Source: a virus
Lineage: Duplodnaviria > Heunggongvirae > Uroviricota > Caudoviricetes
Strand: one strand, 5' to 3'
IMG/VR virus record: IMGVR_UViG_2565956717_000009
Span: 1 to 37,482 of that record
Length of the DNA: 37,482 nt
Numbering within the stretch: position 1 is the stretch's first letter; each line of letters opens with the position of its first letter. Below the pieces are notes generated by a model, which saw nothing but the letters and a program-made list of their open reading frames with translations, was not told the origin of the DNA and searched no databases. Below are positions 32,565 to 37,482 of this stretch, in pieces. A program made the position numbers and the translations under genes.

Positions 32565-32699
32565 ATGATGCACTTTCAGCTCGCGGGTAGCGGCGTCATG
32601 TCCGCTTTCTACCCGCACGAATCTGAATTATCACGCCGAGTTAAACAATTAATCAGAGCAGCAAAGAAACAACTGGAGGCCTTATGCGCAATGAAATAG
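32565..32699 (+). CDS. cIII: CIII-like protein (FtsH inhibitor)
   Basis: 44 aa from ATG 32565 with AAGGAG RBS at 6-nt spacing; amphipathic ESELSRRVKQLIRAAKKQLEAL resembles the CIII core helix. Confidence 0.55.
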   Translation: MMHFQLAGSGVMSAFYPHESELSRRVKQLIRAAKKQLEALCAMK

Positions 32700-32836
32700 C
32701 CATTAATCACCAGATGCTTCGTGCTGCACAAAACAAAGCAGTAATAGCCAGATTTATTGGTGATTCCAAAATGTGGCTTGAAGCAAATAAAGCGATGAAA
32801 TCAGCTATCAACCTTCCATGGTATCGCAGGAAATGA
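32684..32836 (+). CDS. kil: Kil-like small protein
   Basis: 50 aa, below the ORF-track cutoff; GGAGG RBS; ...IARFIGDSKMW... resembles recalled lambda Kil; overlaps the cIII end. Confidence 0.45.
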   Translation: MRNEIAINHQMLRAAQNKAVIARFIGDSKMWLEANKAMKSAINLPWYRRK

Positions 32837-32940
32837 GTTTTACAGATAACTGGTCAGACGAAGAGTTCATTCGTCAGATGAACAAAATGCTCAATCAGCA
32901 CAAAGAACAGGAGAAAGATGATGATTCTGACTCTGAATGA
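32833..32940 (+). CDS. Small acidic hypothetical protein, ATGA-coupled to the Kil-like gene
   Basis: 35 aa (MSFTDNWSDEEFIRQMNKMLNQHKEQEKDDDSDSE); could be non-coding. Confidence 0.25.
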   Translation: MSFTDNWSDEEFIRQMNKMLNQHKEQEKDDDSDSE

Positions 32941-33229
32941 TAAGCGTGAAATATCGCAAATAATCGCAAGTTTTACTGATGAAGATTACGAACGAATCAA
33001 CAGTGAAGTTGATCGCCTCTGCAAACGTTGCGACCCAATAAGCGAAATGCTTCGCTCATATAAACCAGATGAACACACTAAGGACGCTATCGACTGGCTG
33101 GAAGATGCTGACTGTAACTATCAGGAAAAAGCCGCTGAATGGTTCTGGGATGCAATAACCGAAAGAGTTAAGGCTGAATATGCCTTCGCAATATTCAAAC
33201 GCAGACACATTTATGGAGAAGCAGCATGA
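32918..33229 (+). CDS. Hypothetical protein immediately upstream of recT
   Basis: 103 aa; AGGAGA RBS; 4-nt overlap with the recT start. Confidence 0.5.
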   Translation: MMILTLNDKREISQIIASFTDEDYERINSEVDRLCKRCDPISEMLRSYKPDEHTKDAIDWLEDADCNYQEKAAEWFWDAITERVKAEYAFAIFKRRHIYGEAA

Positions 33230-34128
33230 GCAATATCGTTGAATTCGTTAAACAGCAGGAGCAGTTATTCTGCGGAGCATTGACTGAACAGACGGTGACA
33301 TGGGCTAAGGAAAGCCAGTTTGCAATTCAGTATTTCCAGAAAAACGATTACCTGGCTAAAACAGCACTGGCAAACCCAACCAGCGCACAGAACGCCATCA
33401 TCAATGTTGCGGCGATCGGCATCACCTTAAACCCGGCCAGCAAACTTGCTTATCTAGTTCCGCGCGACGGCATGGTTTGCCTTGATATCAGCTATATGGG
33501 ATTACTTCACCTTGCGCAATCGACAGGTTCTATTAAGTGGGGGCAATGCAAACTGGTGTACTCAAACGACACTTATGAATCAAATGGCCTTGATTCAGCA
33601 CCAACCCACAAATACAACGCATTTGGTGAGCGAGGCTCTATTGTTGGTGGTTATTGCACGGTTAAAACAGCAGATGGTGACTACCTGACTGAAGAAATGA
33701 GTCTGGCAGAAATTAAAGCAGTGGAAGCAACGAGCAAGGCAAAGAATGGACCGTGGAAAACATTCTGGGAAGAGATGGCGCGTAAAACAATAGTTAAACG
33801 CGCCAGCAAATACTGGCCTAAAGCCCAGCGACTGGATAATGCCATTCACCTGCTTAACGAAGATGAAGGTATGCATCAGGAACCAGTTATGCCGCACAAA
33901 TCAGAGGAAGATATCCACGAAGATGAACGGAAACGCCAGCAGGAAATAACGGATAAAGCACAACTTCTTTGTGATGAAATGGCCCAGGCTGAAAACATGG
34001 ATGATTTGAAGCGATATTTTGCAGAAGCATATCGCCTGACATCTGGAATGAAATTGCAGCAGAACGTACAAGCCATTTACATAGAATGCAAAGCGAAACT
34101 GGAGGTTGCCAGTGAGCAAACTATATGA
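33226..34128 (+). CDS. recT: RecT-family single-strand annealing recombinase
   Basis: 300 aa; ...KNGPWKTFWEEMARKTIVKRASKYWP... matches recalled E. coli RecT (NGPWVTHWEEMAKKTAIRRLFKYLP). Confidence 0.9.
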   Translation: MSNIVEFVKQQEQLFCGALTEQTVTWAKESQFAIQYFQKNDYLAKTALANPTSAQNAIINVAAIGITLNPASKLAYLVPRDGMVCLDISYMGLLHLAQSTGSIKWGQCKLVYSNDTYESNGLDSAPTHKYNAFGERGSIVGGYCTVKTADGDYLTEEMSLAEIKAVEATSKAKNGPWKTFWEEMARKTIVKRASKYWPKAQRLDNAIHLLNEDEGMHQEPVMPHKSEEDIHEDERKRQQEITDKAQLLCDEMAQAENMDDLKRYFAEAYRLTSGMKLQQNVQAIYIECKAKLEVASEQTI

Positions 34129-34594
34129 AATAGCCAATGAATACGCAAAATTGATGGATTCAGATTTAGAGCCAGAGATGATTGCTGACACAATAGAAGG
34201 CATGGAAGGAGAATTTACCGATAAAATAGAGCAACTTCTCGCCATTATTAAAAATGAATCTGGTTATGCTGAACGCCTCAAGGACGAGGCAAAGTCACTG
34301 AATGAACGAGCCGCAGTAATTCAAAATAAGATTGACAGCATTATGGCGTATATAGCGTCATCGCTTGAAATGGTTGGCAAGAAAAAGATTCGAGCAGGTA
34401 TCCACCAGGTAACAATCCGCAAACCGTCAGAAACTGTAGAAATCATCGACTCAAGCGCCCTTCCTCAAGAATACGTTGAGTTTGAAACGACAATTAAAGC
34501 CGACAAACTGGCAATCAAACACCAACTAAAAGCAGGAATAAATATCCCCGGCGCTCAACTCAAAGTTGGGAAACCTTCACTTCTTATCAAATAA
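34112..34594 (+). CDS. Gp157-family-like protein (recollection), GTG start
   Basis: About 160 aa, coiled-coil N-terminus; GGAGG RBS 6 nt before GTG 34112; overlaps the recT 3' end. Confidence 0.45.
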   Translation: MSKLYEIANEYAKLMDSDLEPEMIADTIEGMEGEFTDKIEQLLAIIKNESGYAERLKDEAKSLNERAAVIQNKIDSIMAYIASSLEMVGKKKIRAGIHQVTIRKPSETVEIIDSSALPQEYVEFETTIKADKLAIKHQLKAGINIPGAQLKVGKPSLLIK

Positions 34595-34605
34595 CGGTAT
34601 CGCCT

Positions 34606-34920
34606 ATGAAAAAGACTCCATGGGAGAAATGGGAAGTCGATTTCTTGCGCGAAGTAGCGGCGACAATGCCAGTTGAAGTTATCGCTGAAAAACTGGAAAG
34701 GACTGAAAAAGCAGTAATGGCGAAAGCAACAAGGATTGGCGCTGACATTGTTAGCCGACTTCGTGGAAGACGATGGACAAGAGCCGAAGTATCACTTTTC
34801 GGTAAGTTCTCCGCAGAAGAAATAGCAATTGCAACCTGCCGCTCAATTTATTCAGTAAGAGCTATGCGATACAAGCTAAAAAAACTCGATGAAGAAAGAG
34901 CAGGCATACGAATAAATTAA
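34606..34920 (+). CDS. Hypothetical protein
   Basis: 104 aa; basic; possible HTH-like segment (WTRAEVSLFGKFSAEEIAIAT); family unknown. Confidence 0.45.
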   Translation: MKKTPWEKWEVDFLREVAATMPVEVIAEKLERTEKAVMAKATRIGADIVSRLRGRRWTRAEVSLFGKFSAEEIAIATCRSIYSVRAMRYKLKKLDEERAGIRIN

Positions 34921-34936
34921 CATGGAGTAATTAACA

Positions 34937-35218
34937 ATGAAGCTAAACATCGACCTCGGCAAATACGTTATTACTGGAACAAAACGCGACCTGATTCTTA
35001 ATGAAAGAGGAATTATCAAAGAAGGTGAGAATGCAGGGAAAGAAACACTAAGCCGTATCGGTTATTACAGCAAGTTTGAGCATCTGGTCAAAGAGTTATG
35101 CAACCGTGAAATCCTGTTATCTCAGGCGCAGACGCTACAGGATATTCAGCAGCATATCGAAACTTTAGGTATGTCACTTAGCATGGCTATTGACCAGTTC
35201 GTGGAGAGTAAACCATGA
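34937..35218 (+). CDS. Hypothetical protein
   Basis: 93 aa ORF in the early-left operon. Confidence 0.45.
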
Positions 35219-35382
35219 GAGGACTTGCATACAATCCCGGCATTCTTCCGGCAGAAATGATTATTCGCCAACGCGTAAAGCCAATGCCATCGAGAGAGGA
35301 ATTGCTTAAAAGAAAGAGTTTCGGTTCTGTTAATGACAACAAATATCTGAATGCTATGTGGCGCAAAGGAGGCAACCAGTGA
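35215..35382 (+). CDS. Small hypothetical protein
   Basis: 55 aa, ATGA-coupled to the upstream gene; below the ORF-track cutoff. Confidence 0.3.
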
Positions 35383-35633
35383 GTAATTCAGCACGACTAC
35401 AGCTTGGTTTTTCACCGCTATCAAAAACTATCATGCTGGCAAAAATGCGCGATGTTGAAGGTGGACGTATGCGCGTTGGCAATGATCCAGGTCGTGATGT
35501 TACCAATGAGGCTGCTCAATTGGTGTGGCGACTGGTCATGGCTGAAGGTGGTGAGATCGCGCGGGAGCTGGATGATGGTTCTCGCATGGTGTTGAAGGCA
35601 GAAAAGCAGGAGGCAACCAGTGAGCCAGATTGA
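35379..35633 (+). CDS. Hypothetical protein bounded by a duplicated 16-bp junction sequence
   Basis: GTG start 6 nt after AAGGAGG; the RBS/start motif GGAGGCAACCAGTGAG recurs at 35609-35624. Confidence 0.4.
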
Positions 35634-36064
35634 TTATCAGGCACTGCGTGCTAAGGCAGAAAAAAGCAACGTGTGGCGAGTGGTCGCTCGAATATGGAGA
35701 GGGCCGATTTGATGGTGATGATGCGCTAATTCATCGCGAGGCTGCTGGATATATTCCTATTTGCAGAATTGAAGGAGCGCATCCAGAAAGCGGTTTCGAT
35801 GAAGATTTCCAAATGGAACAGCAGGCCAATGCTGAATTCATCGCCGCAGCCAATCCGGCTACCGTGCTGACACTGCTGGACGAGCTGGAAGCAGCAAAAA
35901 AGCGCATTGCAGAACTGGAAGCACGGGAAATATCGCTCCCAGAACGTAGCAGCATGCTTCATCGAACAGATTTTCACGAGGATTACCAAACGGTAATGGC
36001 ATACAAAGTTTCTGAGGTCATCGCTGCAATCCGCGCCGCTGGCATTCGCATCAAAGGAGAGTGA
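35620..36064 (+). pseudogene. Ea22-like protein with an apparent +1 frameshift at an A6 tract (35660-35665)
   Basis: GTG 35620 opens frame 1 ([15 protein letters not shown]...), which stops at 35710-35712; frame 2 continues (...ATCGEWSLEYGEGRF...MEQQANAEF...IRIKGE) to 36064; removing one A joins them into a single roughly 148-aa protein. Confidence 0.3.
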
Positions 36065-36065
36065 G

Positions 36066-36257
36066 ATGAACGGACAAATCTCAATTGTTCGACCGGGAGC
36101 ATGTGACGATCGCGAGATACGAATGATTATTCGTCTGGCGATGGGGAAAACAATAACAGCTCTCATTACTCCAGAAAATCTCGCATTAGCTTTAACCGGA
36201 AAGTCAGACCTGCCAGTGGAGCTAAAACTGCGAAATGTTGAGATTAAGGTGAAATAG
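36066..36257 (+). CDS. Hypothetical protein
   Basis: 63 aa; AAGGAGA RBS 6 nt upstream. Confidence 0.5.
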   Translation: MNGQISIVRPGACDDREIRMIIRLAMGKTITALITPENLALALTGKSDLPVELKLRNVEIKVK

Positions 36258-36259
36258 CC

Positions 36260-36874
36260 ATGACCACTATTACCAAAGAACGTATTGAATTGTTCATTAA
36301 AGATCCGCTTGAAAACGGGCTTACTCGTGGCGAACAAATGGAACTGGCACGAATTGCACTGGCATCACTGGAACGCGAACAGATTCGCCACGAGCATGCC
36401 AAATGGTCTGACTCCACATTTGGCTGCGTTGGCCCCATTGGTCCGCTGAAACATCTCTCAAAAGAGGCTCTGGAAGCCGCAGCCGAACCTGACGATCTCA
36501 GCGAGTGGGCTGATATGCAGTTCCTGTTGTGGGATGCACAGCGCCGTGCTGGTATCAGTGATGCTGAAATTACCGCTGCTATGGAAGATAAATTGAAGAT
36601 CAACATGAAGCGCCAGTGGCCTGAACCAAAAGATGGTGAGCCTCGCTTGCACATTAAAGAACCCGGCAACTCTCCGGTAACTCCGGATGGTTGGATAAGC
36701 TGTAGTGAGCGAATGCCAAGCGAAGAAGATGTTTTGGTTTATTGCTCAGACACAAAAGAGCAGATGGTAGGGTTTCACAAAGGTAAAGGGTTATTTCAAT
36801 TCTTTTACATGAATGGTGTTGAGGGGGTATGTGAGCCGTCACACTGGATGCCGCTACCAGAGCCTCCACTTTGA
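36260..36874 (+). CDS. DUF550/DUF551-type prophage protein (recollection)
   Basis: 204 aa; C-terminal ...PDGWISCSERMPSEEDVLVYC...HWMPLPEPP resembles DUF551. Confidence 0.5.
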   Translation: MTTITKERIELFIKDPLENGLTRGEQMELARIALASLEREQIRHEHAKWSDSTFGCVGPIGPLKHLSKEALEAAAEPDDLSEWADMQFLLWDAQRRAGISDAEITAAMEDKLKINMKRQWPEPKDGEPRLHIKEPGNSPVTPDGWISCSERMPSEEDVLVYCSDTKEQMVGFHKGKGLFQFFYMNGVEGVCEPSHWMPLPEPPL

Positions 36875-36970
36875 AAGCGAAGCTTATACATATCTTTTAC
36901 ATCAGCAATCTATTGTTAATCTCCAATCAATGTTACGTTGTCATCTCACTCATGCTTTGGAGGTAGTGAT

Positions 36971-37150
36971 ATGTCTTGTCCAAAATGCGGTTCTGGAAAT
37001 ATTGCAAAAGAAAAAACAATGCGTGGATGGTCTGGTGATTATGTGTGCTGCGATTGCGGATACAACGACTCTAAAGACGCATTTGGAGAGCGTGGTAAAA
37101 ACGAGTTTGTTAAAATTAATAAAGAACGCGAAGGCAACGAAAAAAGCTAA
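36971..37150 (+). CDS. Zinc-ribbon protein
   Basis: 59 aa from ATG 36971 with GGAGG RBS at 7-nt spacing; CPKCG...CCDCG pairs. Confidence 0.5.
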   Translation: MSCPKCGSGNIAKEKTMRGWSGDYVCCDCGYNDSKDAFGERGKNEFVKINKEREGNEKS

Positions 37151-37213
37151 TTTATTTATTCATATATTAAAACAATGTAACCAATATTCGAATTGAAGAA
37201 CTGAAAGAACACC

Positions 37214-37236
37214 AAGCCGCCTGATGGCGGTTTTTT
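37214..37236 (+). terminator. Rho-independent terminator
   Basis: gccgcc-tgat-ggcgg followed by tttttt. Confidence 0.55.
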
Positions 37237-37281
37237 ATTGCCTGATTTGCAGGTTCGATTCCCTATTCGGAGATAGCACTC

Positions 37282-37482
37282 ATGCAACACGAACTACAAC
37301 CTGATTCACTGGTTGATTTGAAATTCATCATGGCTGATACTGGCTTTGGTAAAACCTTCATCTACGACCGGATTAAGTCCGGCGACCTGCCTAAAGCCAA
37401 AGTTATCCACGGTCGAGCAAGATGGTTATATCGTGACCATTGTGAATTCAAAAATAAGCTCTTAAGCCGCGCCAATGGGTAA
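37282..37482 (+). CDS. AlpA/excisionase-family small DNA-binding protein
   Basis: 66 aa; ...LVDLKFIMADTGFGKTFIYDRIKSGDLPKAKVIHGRARW... resembles AlpA/Xis-type winged-helix proteins; stop is the last codon of the window. Confidence 0.55.
   Translation: MQHELQPDSLVDLKFIMADTGFGKTFIYDRIKSGDLPKAKVIHGRARWLYRDHCEFKNKLLSRANG

What the first reader, a model, noticed from the sequence alone, without database searches (positions are those of the whole stretch)
36260..37150. DUF550/DUF551-type protein and a zinc-ribbon protein at the distal end of the early-left operon
The 204-aa protein resembles the prophage family annotated as dATP/dGTP pyrophosphohydrolase-like (DUF550) with a C-terminal DUF551, hinting at nucleotide-pool manipulation. 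It is followed by a 59-aa CxxC...CxxC zinc ribbon with a strong RBS. These are accessory genes of unknown role.
Basis: partly seen in the sequence, partly recalled or inferred. Interest (0 to 1): 0.35.

Follow-up and report, generated by a model that had tools for sequence, protein, structure and literature searches.

The report
P22-type eaA and eaG accessory genes
These are the already catalogued eaA-like and eaG accessory genes at the far end of the early-left operon of a P22/HK620-type E. coli prophage: the first is very probably an active MazG-type nucleotide pyrophosphatase joined to a small variable binding domain, the second a tiny zinc-ribbon protein, and neither has a known role.

Summary
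ORF 36260-36874 (204 aa) matches PF04447 (DUF550, now named dATP/dGTP pyrophosphohydrolase; 143 bits) and PF04448 (DUF551; 68 bits). ORF 36971-37150 (59 aa) is a CxxC...CxxC zinc ribbon behind a GGAGG ribosome-binding site. They are the counterparts of phage P22 eaA and eaG, in P22 gene order, followed by the lambda-type t'I terminator, a cII-type PI site and a TorI-type xis. An identical 204-aa protein is already in E. coli records.

New here:
- It keeps the four metal ligands and the phosphate and guanine-contacting residues of MazZ.
- It is under strong purifying selection against the P22 allele.
- The window has no PurZ or DatZ, so the diaminopurine (Z-genome) role does not apply.
- DUF551 models as an SH3-like barrel, with conserved ends and a hypervariable core.
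- The gene is built from swappable cassettes with sharp DNA boundaries.
- EaG resembles Rac Lar/RalR only in its zinc knuckles. Membership is not established.

Substrate and biological role remain untested. The finding is ordinary and low in novelty.

The parts
36260..36874 (+). eaA-like gene (204 aa): N-terminal module, DUF550 (MazG-like) domain, linker, DUF551 domain
   Evidence: ORF. Pfam PF04447 and PF04448. P22 EaA has the same two-domain architecture and 56% identity by tblastn. An identical protein, P0001, is on record in E. coli.
36260..36370 (+). Conserved N-terminal module (residues 1-37, helical), shared with proteins that carry other middle cassettes
   Evidence: 92-93% DNA identity to HK620 hkaE and P22 eaA up to position 36371. 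HK620 hkaE has the same N-terminus but no DUF550. The model shows helices at residues 6-14 and 23-54.
36383..36670 (+). DUF550 / all-alpha NTP pyrophosphohydrolase (MazG-like) domain, residues 42-137
36689..36868 (+). DUF551 domain (residues 144-203): predicted SH3-like small beta-barrel with conserved ends and a variable core (core DNA 36718-36835)
36959..36963 (+). GGAGG ribosome-binding site of eaG
   Evidence: Read directly from the sequence. The P22 record annotates the same site.
36971..37150 (+). eaG (59 aa): CxxC...CxxC zinc-ribbon protein
   Evidence: ORF. phrog_2945 at E=1.7e-31. 95% identical to P22 EaG. RefSeq relatives name it 'Eag protein'. The best Pfam hit is Lar_restr_allev at 23.4 bits, below the cutoff of 28.6.
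37214..37240 (+). Intrinsic terminator equivalent to lambda/P22 t'I
   Evidence: Eight-pair stem with 5 G-C pairs, followed by a T-run. Window 37177-37244 is 97% identical to lambda 29165-29098. P22 record L06296 annotates this sequence as t'I.
37238..37250 (+). TTGC-N5-TTGC cII-type activator site of the integration promoter PI (promoter about 37237-37275)
   Evidence: Coordinates transferred from the HK620 annotation across a 98.9% identical, 647-bp ungapped match. The repeat can be read directly in the sequence. The function is inferred from the annotation and was not tested.
37282..37482 (+). TorI-type excisionase (context; marks the end of the operon and of the window)
   Evidence: phrog_66 excisionase. 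Relatives annotate it as torI.
36066..36257 (+). eaI-like gene (63 aa), immediately upstream (context)
   Evidence: phrog_1222 at E=6.5e-41. It occupies the position of P22 eaI and HK620 hkaF.

Best explanation
The interval holds two conserved, non-essential accessory genes of P22-like phages, eaA and eaG. They are transcribed late in the N-antiterminated early-left (PL) transcript on infection or induction, just before the t'I terminator and xis. The eaA-like protein is a three-part mosaic: a short helical N-module, a MazG-type all-alpha nucleoside-triphosphate pyrophosphohydrolase domain (DUF550), and a small SH3-like beta-barrel (DUF551). I infer that the DUF550 domain is catalytically active. 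It would bind divalent metal through E69/E72/E82/D85 and cleave a purine (deoxy)nucleoside triphosphate to the monophosphate plus pyrophosphate. A guanine-type substrate is most likely, because the counterpart of MazZ D60 (D92) is kept. I also infer that DUF551 acts as a variable docking module that places the enzyme on a partner. EaG is a 59-aa zinc ribbon that most likely acts by binding a protein or nucleic acid. Shown: the gene identities, domain content, predicted fold, retained active-site residues, purifying selection, cassette structure and operon position. Inferred: enzymatic activity, substrate, DUF551 as an adaptor, and any physiological role, whether sanitising or re-balancing the nucleotide pool early in lytic growth or something else.
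Confidence: 0.55

Rival explanations
1. The DUF550 domain acts on guanosine alarmones, not on DNA precursors. By removing (p)ppGpp early after infection or induction, it would blunt stringent-response-linked abortive infection or shift the lysis-lysogeny decision.
For: A phage MazG-like enzyme (Atd1, from Pectobacterium phage PcCB7V) dephosphorylates ppGpp but not rNTPs, and protects against TIR-STING and retron-TIR toxicity (bioRxiv 10.1101/2022.06.09.495361). The guanine-contacting aspartate of MazZ is conserved here as D92. The gene sits among early-left genes such as ea22, which is reported to influence lysogeny (PMC10834534).
Against: Nothing shows that Atd1 belongs to PF04447. No ppGpp data exist for any DUF550 protein. 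The two DUF550-related enzymes that were assayed act on (d)GTP or on dGTP and dATP.
Confidence: 0.12
2. The distal end of the operon is an anti-defence island. EaG would be a diverged Lar/RalR-type zinc ribbon that alleviates type I restriction, or a small DNase toxin. EaA would hydrolyse a linear purine-nucleotide immune signal such as dITP. The hypervariable DUF551 barrel would target variable host defence proteins.
For: EaG's best Pfam match is Lar_restr_allev at E=7e-5. Pairwise, it aligns to Rac RalR over 54 residues at 30% identity, E=1e-3. RalR occupies the equivalent place in Rac, between recT and xisR. RalR/Lar is a documented restriction-alleviation protein and DNase toxin (PMC4041452). 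Two DUF550 cluster representatives carry a Lar-like zinc ribbon in the same polypeptide. At least 22 DUF551 core types lie between conserved flanks. dITP is a known defence messenger (bioRxiv 10.1101/2024.12.20.629578).
Against: The Lar hit is below Pfam's threshold (23.4 against 28.6 bits). hhalign of the EaG family against five Lar-family sequences gives only 24% probability, and only over the zinc knuckles. The WNxR motif, which is invariant in those five Lar sequences, reads INKER in EaG. Zinc ribbons cross-match many families. PADLOC has no hit to either protein. The two fusion hits are also sub-threshold. No anti-defence phenotype is reported for either gene.
Confidence: 0.1
3. The genes are dispensable mosaic passengers. 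They would be conserved mainly because the surrounding DNA (N-module, linker, tail, spacer and t'I block) serves as recombination junctions and regulatory sequence, and the proteins would contribute nothing measurable.
For: The block 36836-37240 is 97-99% identical in P22, HK620 and VE-F5, synonymous sites included, so recent exchange explains the similarity better than selection does. HK620 lacks the DUF550 cassette entirely. Frameshifted eag variants are common in databases. In VE-F5 the 5' end of the eaA-like gene is a pseudogene fragment. Published genome tables list both genes as 'unknown'.
Against: Strong purifying selection acts on DUF550 between diverged alleles (pN/pS 0.18). The catalytic residues are kept in at least 143 of the 144-148 representatives aligned at each position. 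The domain is found in 984 phage records, including virulent Klebsiella phages and mycobacteriophages, and in 4561 cluster representatives. Intact EaG clusters, with 165, 147, 49 and 47 members, greatly outnumber the frameshifted ones.
Confidence: 0.15

Closest known systems
Phage P22 EaA (317 aa; GenBank L06296 / NC_002371)
   Same: It has the same DUF550 + DUF551 architecture. It has the same N-terminal module, the same linker and the same C-terminal tail at 92-97% DNA identity. It occupies the same position between eaI and eaG.
   Different: The window's protein is 113 residues shorter. Its DUF550 allele is diverged (80% aa, 71% nt). Its DUF551 core is a different type with no detectable DNA similarity.
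Phage P22 EaG / HK620 HkaD ('Eag protein')
   Same: The proteins are 95-98% identical and 59 aa long, with the same RBS and the same t'I terminator downstream.
   Different: There is essentially no difference. In P22, eaC follows t'I, whereas here and in HK620 the TorI-type xis follows.
Cyanophage S-2L MazZ (PDB 7ODY), a (d)GTP pyrophosphohydrolase of the Z-genome cluster
   Different: Sequence similarity is marginal (phmmer E=0.38 against the PDB). [quoted passage not shown] It has no N-module and no DUF551.
Acinetobacter phage SH-Ab 15497 DUF5664-DUF550 dATP/dGTP pyrophosphohydrolase (the source of the Pfam name)
   Same: It belongs to the same Pfam family, PF04447. The ExxE and ExxD motifs and the KxxxNxxRxW segment align.
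   Different: It is a distant member, scoring 33 bits against 143 bits for the window's protein. It is fused to DUF5664, a domain that is active by itself in another phage (Arthrobacter phage Wayne). It is 385 aa long and lies in a purZ/datZ cluster.
DUF551 proteins: E. coli CPS-53 YfdS and the Stx-phage Ea22 variant V2
   Same: They share the portable C-terminal DUF551 module found on prophage early-region proteins (PMC10834534, PMC4776307).
   Different: Their N-terminal partners differ (an Ea22 coiled coil, or none). The only phenotype reported is H2O2 sensitivity of a yfdS mutant. No structure or ligand is known.
Rac prophage Lar/RalR (PF14354), a restriction-alleviation protein and type I toxin DNase
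   Same: It is similar in size (64 aa). It has a CPxCG...CxxC zinc ribbon with similar spacing (17 against 19 residues). It sits at the equivalent place in the operon, near xis.
   Different: EaG falls below the family threshold, lacks the WNxR motif, and reaches only 24% hhalign probability. No RalA-like antisense RNA was detected.

Membership tests
Pfam PF04447 (DUF550 / dATP-dGTP_PPHyd) | Profile HMM score above the curated gathering cutoff, over the full profile length | tested here: met
   143.1 bits against a cutoff of 23; profile positions 1-96 of 97; residues 42-137.
Pfam PF04447 (DUF550 / dATP-dGTP_PPHyd) | All-alpha NTP pyrophosphohydrolase (MazG-HisE) fold | tested here: met
Pfam PF04447 (DUF550 / dATP-dGTP_PPHyd) | Acidic metal-binding motif ExxE...ExxD, plus a phosphate-contacting Arg | tested here: met
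   E69, E72, E82, D85 and R118 are present. E72, E82, D85 and R118 are identical in every aligned representative, and E69 in 147 of 148. They correspond to MazZ E35, E38, E50, D53 and R83.
Pfam PF04447 (DUF550 / dATP-dGTP_PPHyd) | dATP/dGTP to dNMP + PPi activity | not testable with these tools
   This needs a biochemical assay. Activity is known only for distant members.
MazZ of the Z-genome (2-aminoadenine) cluster | Co-conservation with purZ and datZ in the same genome | tested here: not met
   tblastn of PurZ and DatZ from SH-Ab 15497 and S-2L against the window finds nothing better than E=0.14.
Pfam PF04448 (DUF551) | Profile HMM score above the gathering cutoff | tested here: met
   67.8 bits against a cutoff of 22; profile positions 1-67 of 68. 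The signature flanks W..S/D-E..P and (S/T)HWMPLP are present.
P22 EaA orthologue group | DUF550 + DUF551 protein encoded between eaI and eaG at the distal end of PL | tested here: met
   Architecture; synteny; 56% identity to P22 EaA.
P22 EaG ('Eag protein', phrog_2945) | 59-aa zinc ribbon directly upstream of t'I | tested here: met
   95% identity to P22 EaG. phrog_2945 at 108.8 bits. The terminator is 97% identical to lambda t'I.
Lar/RalR (Pfam PF14354) | Profile HMM score above the gathering cutoff | tested here: not met
   23.4 bits against a cutoff of 28.6, and only profile positions 5-43 of 58. RalR itself scores 53.5 bits.
Lar/RalR (Pfam PF14354) | CPxCG...CxxC zinc ribbon followed by a helix carrying the WNxR motif | tested here: not met
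   The ribbon is present. The motif reads INKER instead of WNxR, and W is invariant in the five Lar-family sequences aligned.
Lar/RalR (Pfam PF14354) | Profile-profile homology | tested here: inconclusive
   hhalign probability 24%, with 31 aligned columns. Both alignments are very shallow.
Lar/RalR (Pfam PF14354) | Restriction alleviation or DNase toxicity | not testable with these tools
   This needs plating on EcoKI-type hosts and toxicity assays.

The most novel reading that the evidence does not exclude
EaA-type proteins are targeted anti-defence enzymes. A MazG-type hydrolase would destroy a linear guanine or purine nucleotide signal, such as (p)ppGpp or dITP, or would locally deplete a (d)NTP. 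It would be delivered to variable host targets by the hypervariable SH3-like DUF551 barrel. Conserved DNA junctions (the N-module, the GNSPVxPDxxGW linker and the HWMPLPEPP tail) would let phages swap both the enzyme and the targeting cassettes. EaG would be a diverged Lar/RalR-type anti-restriction zinc ribbon. Together these would make the last 900 bp of PL a compact counter-defence island.
Probability: 0.1. Interest if true: 0.6.

Novelty: already known. Interest (0 to 1): 0.15.

Why it matters
The practical value is modest. The 'ea' genes between the recombination functions and xis are among the least understood parts of the best-studied temperate phages. They occur in most sequenced E. 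coli genomes: 3987 of 5426 complete genomes match some part of this 1.9-kb stretch. This analysis gives a concrete, cheap hypothesis, namely an intact MazG-type active site with a probable guanine preference, attached to a diversifying SH3-like module. It also shows that the database name 'dATP/dGTP pyrophosphohydrolase' is carried over from a distant Z-genome enzyme whose pathway is absent here. If the enzyme proved to act on alarmones or on immune nucleotides, it would add a widespread counter-defence module. If it merely cleans the dNTP pool, it is routine.

Tried and rejected
- **Z-genome role (MazZ, which feeds PurZ).** Rejected, because the window has no PurZ or DatZ.
- **EaG as a relative of lambda Ea8.5 or lambdap35, which occupy the same position in lambda.** No similarity by BLASTP.
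- **EaG as a Lar/RalR family member.** Not established: it is sub-threshold in Pfam, lacks WNxR, and reaches only 24% hhalign probability.
- **Defence-system membership.** PADLOC has no hit to either protein.
- **NCBIfam.** No family for the 204-aa protein, and only sub-threshold archaeal zinc-ribbon hits for EaG.
- **A hidden RNA gene or RalA-like antitoxin.** Rfam finds only a chance-level STnc130 match (24 bits against 55).
- **Own promoter for eaG (moron architecture).** The promoter scan finds none in 35500-37482.
- **Repeats.** Only short, chance-level pairs.
- **Antisense ORFs 36244-36669 and 35726-36337.** No family support.
- **Diversity-generating retroelement as the cause of DUF551 variability.** Not pursued. 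The variable cores differ in length and throughout their sequence, and they are bounded by conserved recombination junctions, which fits cassette exchange.
- **Full-length model for DUF551.** Confidence was too low (pLDDT 48-66), so the domain was modelled again on its own.

Full report
**Observation.** ORF 36260-36874 (+) encodes 204 aa. It starts at an ATG 8 nt after AAGGTG and 2 nt after the stop of the upstream 63-aa ORF. ORF 36971-37150 (+) encodes 59 aa and starts at an ATG 7 nt after GGAGG. Pfam places residues 42-137 of the larger protein in PF04447 (formerly DUF550, now 'dATP/dGTP pyrophosphohydrolase'), at 143.1 bits against a cutoff of 23 and over 96 of 97 profile positions. It places residues 144-203 in PF04448 (DUF551), at 67.8 bits against 22. 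The small protein has C3-x2-C6 and C26-x2-C29. Its only significant family is phrog_2945, of unknown function. ORFs on the opposite strand have no family support.

**Context.** The window is a P22/HK620-type (Lederbergvirus) prophage of E. coli.
- Positions 32682-37482 align co-directionally with the kil-recT-...-ead-eaA-like-eag-torI stretch of E. coli VE-F5, and with the corresponding part of HK620, at 91-99% identity.
- The classical P22 record L06296 gives the order eaF-eaD-eaI-eaA-eaG-t'I.
- The window reproduces that order: Ead/Ea22-like (35630-36064), EaI-like (36066-36257), EaA-like (36260-36874) and EaG (36971-37150).
- Next comes an intrinsic terminator at 37214-37240. It lies in a stretch that is 97% identical to lambda 29165-29098, the t'I region.
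- After it come the TTGC-N5-TTGC activator site of PI at 37238-37250, transferred from the HK620 annotation, and a TorI-type xis (37282-37482).
- 'Distal end of the early-left operon' is therefore correct.
- The 204-aa protein exists with 100% identity in public E. coli assemblies (P0001, 15 contigs).
- EaG is 95% identical to P22 EaG. Published genome tables list both genes as 'unknown' (PMC4837284).

**The DUF550 domain.**
- The AlphaFold model has pLDDT of about 95 for residues 30-120.
- The MazZ paper assigns metal ligands E34/E35/E38 and E50/D53. It names R83 as the probable transition-state residue, K76/N80/W85 as pocket residues from the second chain, and D60 as the contact to the guanine 2-amino group. 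E34 is not conserved even among MazZ proteins (PMC8342488).
- In the phmmer alignment, these residues map to K68/E69/E72, E82/D85, R118, K111/N115/W120 and D92 of the window's protein.
- The SH-Ab 15497 enzyme aligns the same way (HEIPE with KEALE, EFAD with EWAD, KMEINQARDW with KLKINMKRQW). One profile alignment to MazZ shifts the first motif by a few residues. The ExxE-(9 to 11)-ExxD spacing supports the first register.
- Each mapped residue is kept in at least 143 of the 144-148 representatives aligned at that position. These come from clusters at 50% identity.
- Against the diverged P22 allele, the domain is 80% identical in protein but 71% in DNA. Synonymous sites are saturated (pS 0.83) and pN is 0.15. 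That indicates strong purifying selection.
- I conclude that the domain is very probably an active metal-dependent NTP pyrophosphohydrolase, with a purine and probably guanine-type substrate. This is an inference, because nothing in the EaA branch has been assayed.

**How far the name can be trusted.** The Pfam name comes from the SH-Ab 15497 protein (PMC12884076 and PMC8342488). That protein scores only 33 bits against PF04447 and also carries DUF5664. A DUF5664 protein from another phage, Arthrobacter phage Wayne, hydrolyses dATP, dUTP and dGTP on its own. In Z-genome phages the activity supplies dGMP to PurZ and removes dATP. The window has neither PurZ nor DatZ. DUF550 is also common in phages with no Z-pathway, including 384 Klebsiella phage records and 41 mycobacteriophage records among 984 matching records. 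The biochemical class therefore transfers reasonably, but the physiological role does not.

**DUF551 and the mosaic.**
- Modelled alone with 73 homologues, DUF551 gives a confident five-stranded barrel (pLDDT 89.6).
- The domain has invariant ends (W..S.R-M-P and (S/T)HWMPLPEPP) and a highly variable middle.
- In 255 proteins gathered here, there are 84 unique cores in at least 22 types sharing less than 40% identity.
- DUF551 often stands alone as a 53-130 aa protein, or sits on Ea22-type proteins.
- DNA comparison gives sharp cassette boundaries:
  - N-module, 36258-36371: 92-93% identical to HK620 and P22.
  - DUF550 cassette, 36371-36660: absent from HK620 hkaE, which carries an unrelated middle segment; 71% identical to P22.
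  - Linker, 36665-36717: 94-98% identical.
  - DUF551 core, 36718-36835: no match in the three relatives.
  - Tail, spacer, eaG and t'I, 36836-37240: 97-99% identical in all three.
- The same GNSPVxPDxxGW linker precedes a different cassette, a Lar-like zinc ribbon, in two DUF550 cluster representatives.
- This is the module shuffling already described for Ea22 (PMC10834534).
- The most economical reading is that DUF551 is a protein- or nucleic-acid-binding adaptor whose specificity varies by cassette exchange.

**EaG.**
- The family is narrow (E. coli, Shigella and Salmonella P22-like and some lambdoid phages) and nearly invariant.
- Its best Pfam match is Lar_restr_allev (E=7e-5), but at 23.4 bits it is below the cutoff of 28.6.
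- Rac Lar is now called RalR. It is a restriction-alleviation protein and a DNase toxin of a type I toxin-antitoxin pair (PMC4041452). It lies between recT and xisR, which is the same relative position as EaG.
- Pairwise, EaG and RalR align over 54 residues at 30% identity, E=1e-3.
- A profile-profile comparison gives only 24% probability and is restricted to the zinc knuckles.
- The WNxR motif, invariant in the five Lar-family sequences I collected, reads INKER in EaG.
- EaG shows no similarity to lambda Ea8.5 or lambdap35, which occupy that position in lambda.
- EaG is therefore a zinc ribbon of unknown function with a weak, unproven Lar/RalR lead.

**Mechanism and rivals.**
- *Best reading (about 0.55 for the mechanistic part, near-certain for identity).* EaA-like is an active MazG-type purine (d)NTP pyrophosphohydrolase carried on a variable SH3-like adaptor. 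It is made early from the antiterminated PL transcript. EaG is a small zinc-ribbon binder.
- *Rival 1.* (p)ppGpp hydrolysis, as shown for the phage MazG-like Atd1.
- *Rival 2.* An anti-defence island, with EaG as a Lar-like protein and EaA degrading a nucleotide signal such as dITP.
- *Rival 3.* Dispensable passengers kept by flanking recombination junctions. Purifying selection and the wide distribution of the domain argue against this one.

**Verdict.** The genes are long-known, database-annotated accessory genes (P22 eaA and eaG), so novelty is 'already known' and interest is low. The useful additions are these:
- The active site is intact.
- The Z-genome rationale behind the family name does not apply.
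- DUF551 models as an SH3-like barrel with a hypervariable core.
- The cassette boundaries are mapped at the DNA level.
- Lar/RalR membership of EaG is not established.

Noticed in passing
window 35609-35712 (and 35630-36064): The ead/Ea22-like gene just upstream appears frameshifted. The GTG start at 35620, behind GGAGG at 35609-35613, reads only 30 aa ([15 protein letters not shown]...) to a stop at 35710-35712, and the rest of Ead continues in another frame. Compared with VE-F5 and HK620, the window has one extra A in the run GCAGAAAAAAGC at about 35657-35663. This is either a pseudogene or a homopolymer sequencing error.
   Followed up: partly
window 36813-37196 (+), overlapping eaG: An alternative-frame ORF of 127 aa matches the same PHROG as EaG (phrog_2945, 62 bits). 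Several database 'EaG' entries are chimeras of the two frames (for example P0138, P0153, P0154, P0136). A-runs at 37010-37015 and 37136-37141 are the likely slip sites. The family profile is therefore contaminated by frameshifted calls.
   Followed up: partly
window 36258-37240: DNA mosaic boundaries inside one gene are sharp. The conserved N-module, linker and tail+eaG+t'I block are 92-99% identical to P22, HK620 and VE-F5. They are separated by a replaceable DUF550 cassette (36371-36660) and a replaceable DUF551 core (36718-36835).
   Followed up: yes
P0213 residues 102-148; P0222 residues 118-162 (DUF550 cluster representatives): Two EaA-type proteins carry a Lar-like zinc-ribbon cassette (PF14354 at 27.5 and 23.6 bits, both just below the cutoff) upstream of DUF550. 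It is preceded by the same GNSPVxPDxxGW linker that precedes DUF551 in the window. This hints that the linker is a general cassette junction and that Lar-like ribbons and DUF550 are functionally linked.
   Followed up: partly
window 37177-37250: The 68-bp stretch 37177-37244 is 97% identical to lambda 29165-29098 (the t'I terminator region). It overlaps the TTGC-N5-TTGC cII-type site of PI at 37238-37250, so the terminator's T-run and the activator site share bases.
   Followed up: partly
window 37282-37482: The TorI-type excisionase also matches the PADLOC model 'mad1' (49.8 bits). The window ends exactly at its stop codon. In E. coli VE-F5 the chromosomal gene dsdC follows about 180 bp later, so xis lies at the prophage edge, with int presumably at the other end.
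   Followed up: no
window 37205-37332 (- strand): A sub-threshold Rfam match to the enterobacterial sRNA STnc130 (24.3 bits against a gathering score of 55; E=0.99) lies antisense to the PI region and the 5' end of xis. It is probably chance.
   Followed up: no
L001 3639-3764 (E. coli VE-F5 relative): In this close relative, the 5' N-module of the eaA-like gene is annotated as a separate pseudogene fragment. The DUF550-DUF551 part is called from an internal start. This shows that the gene is sometimes disrupted in natural prophages.
   Followed up: no
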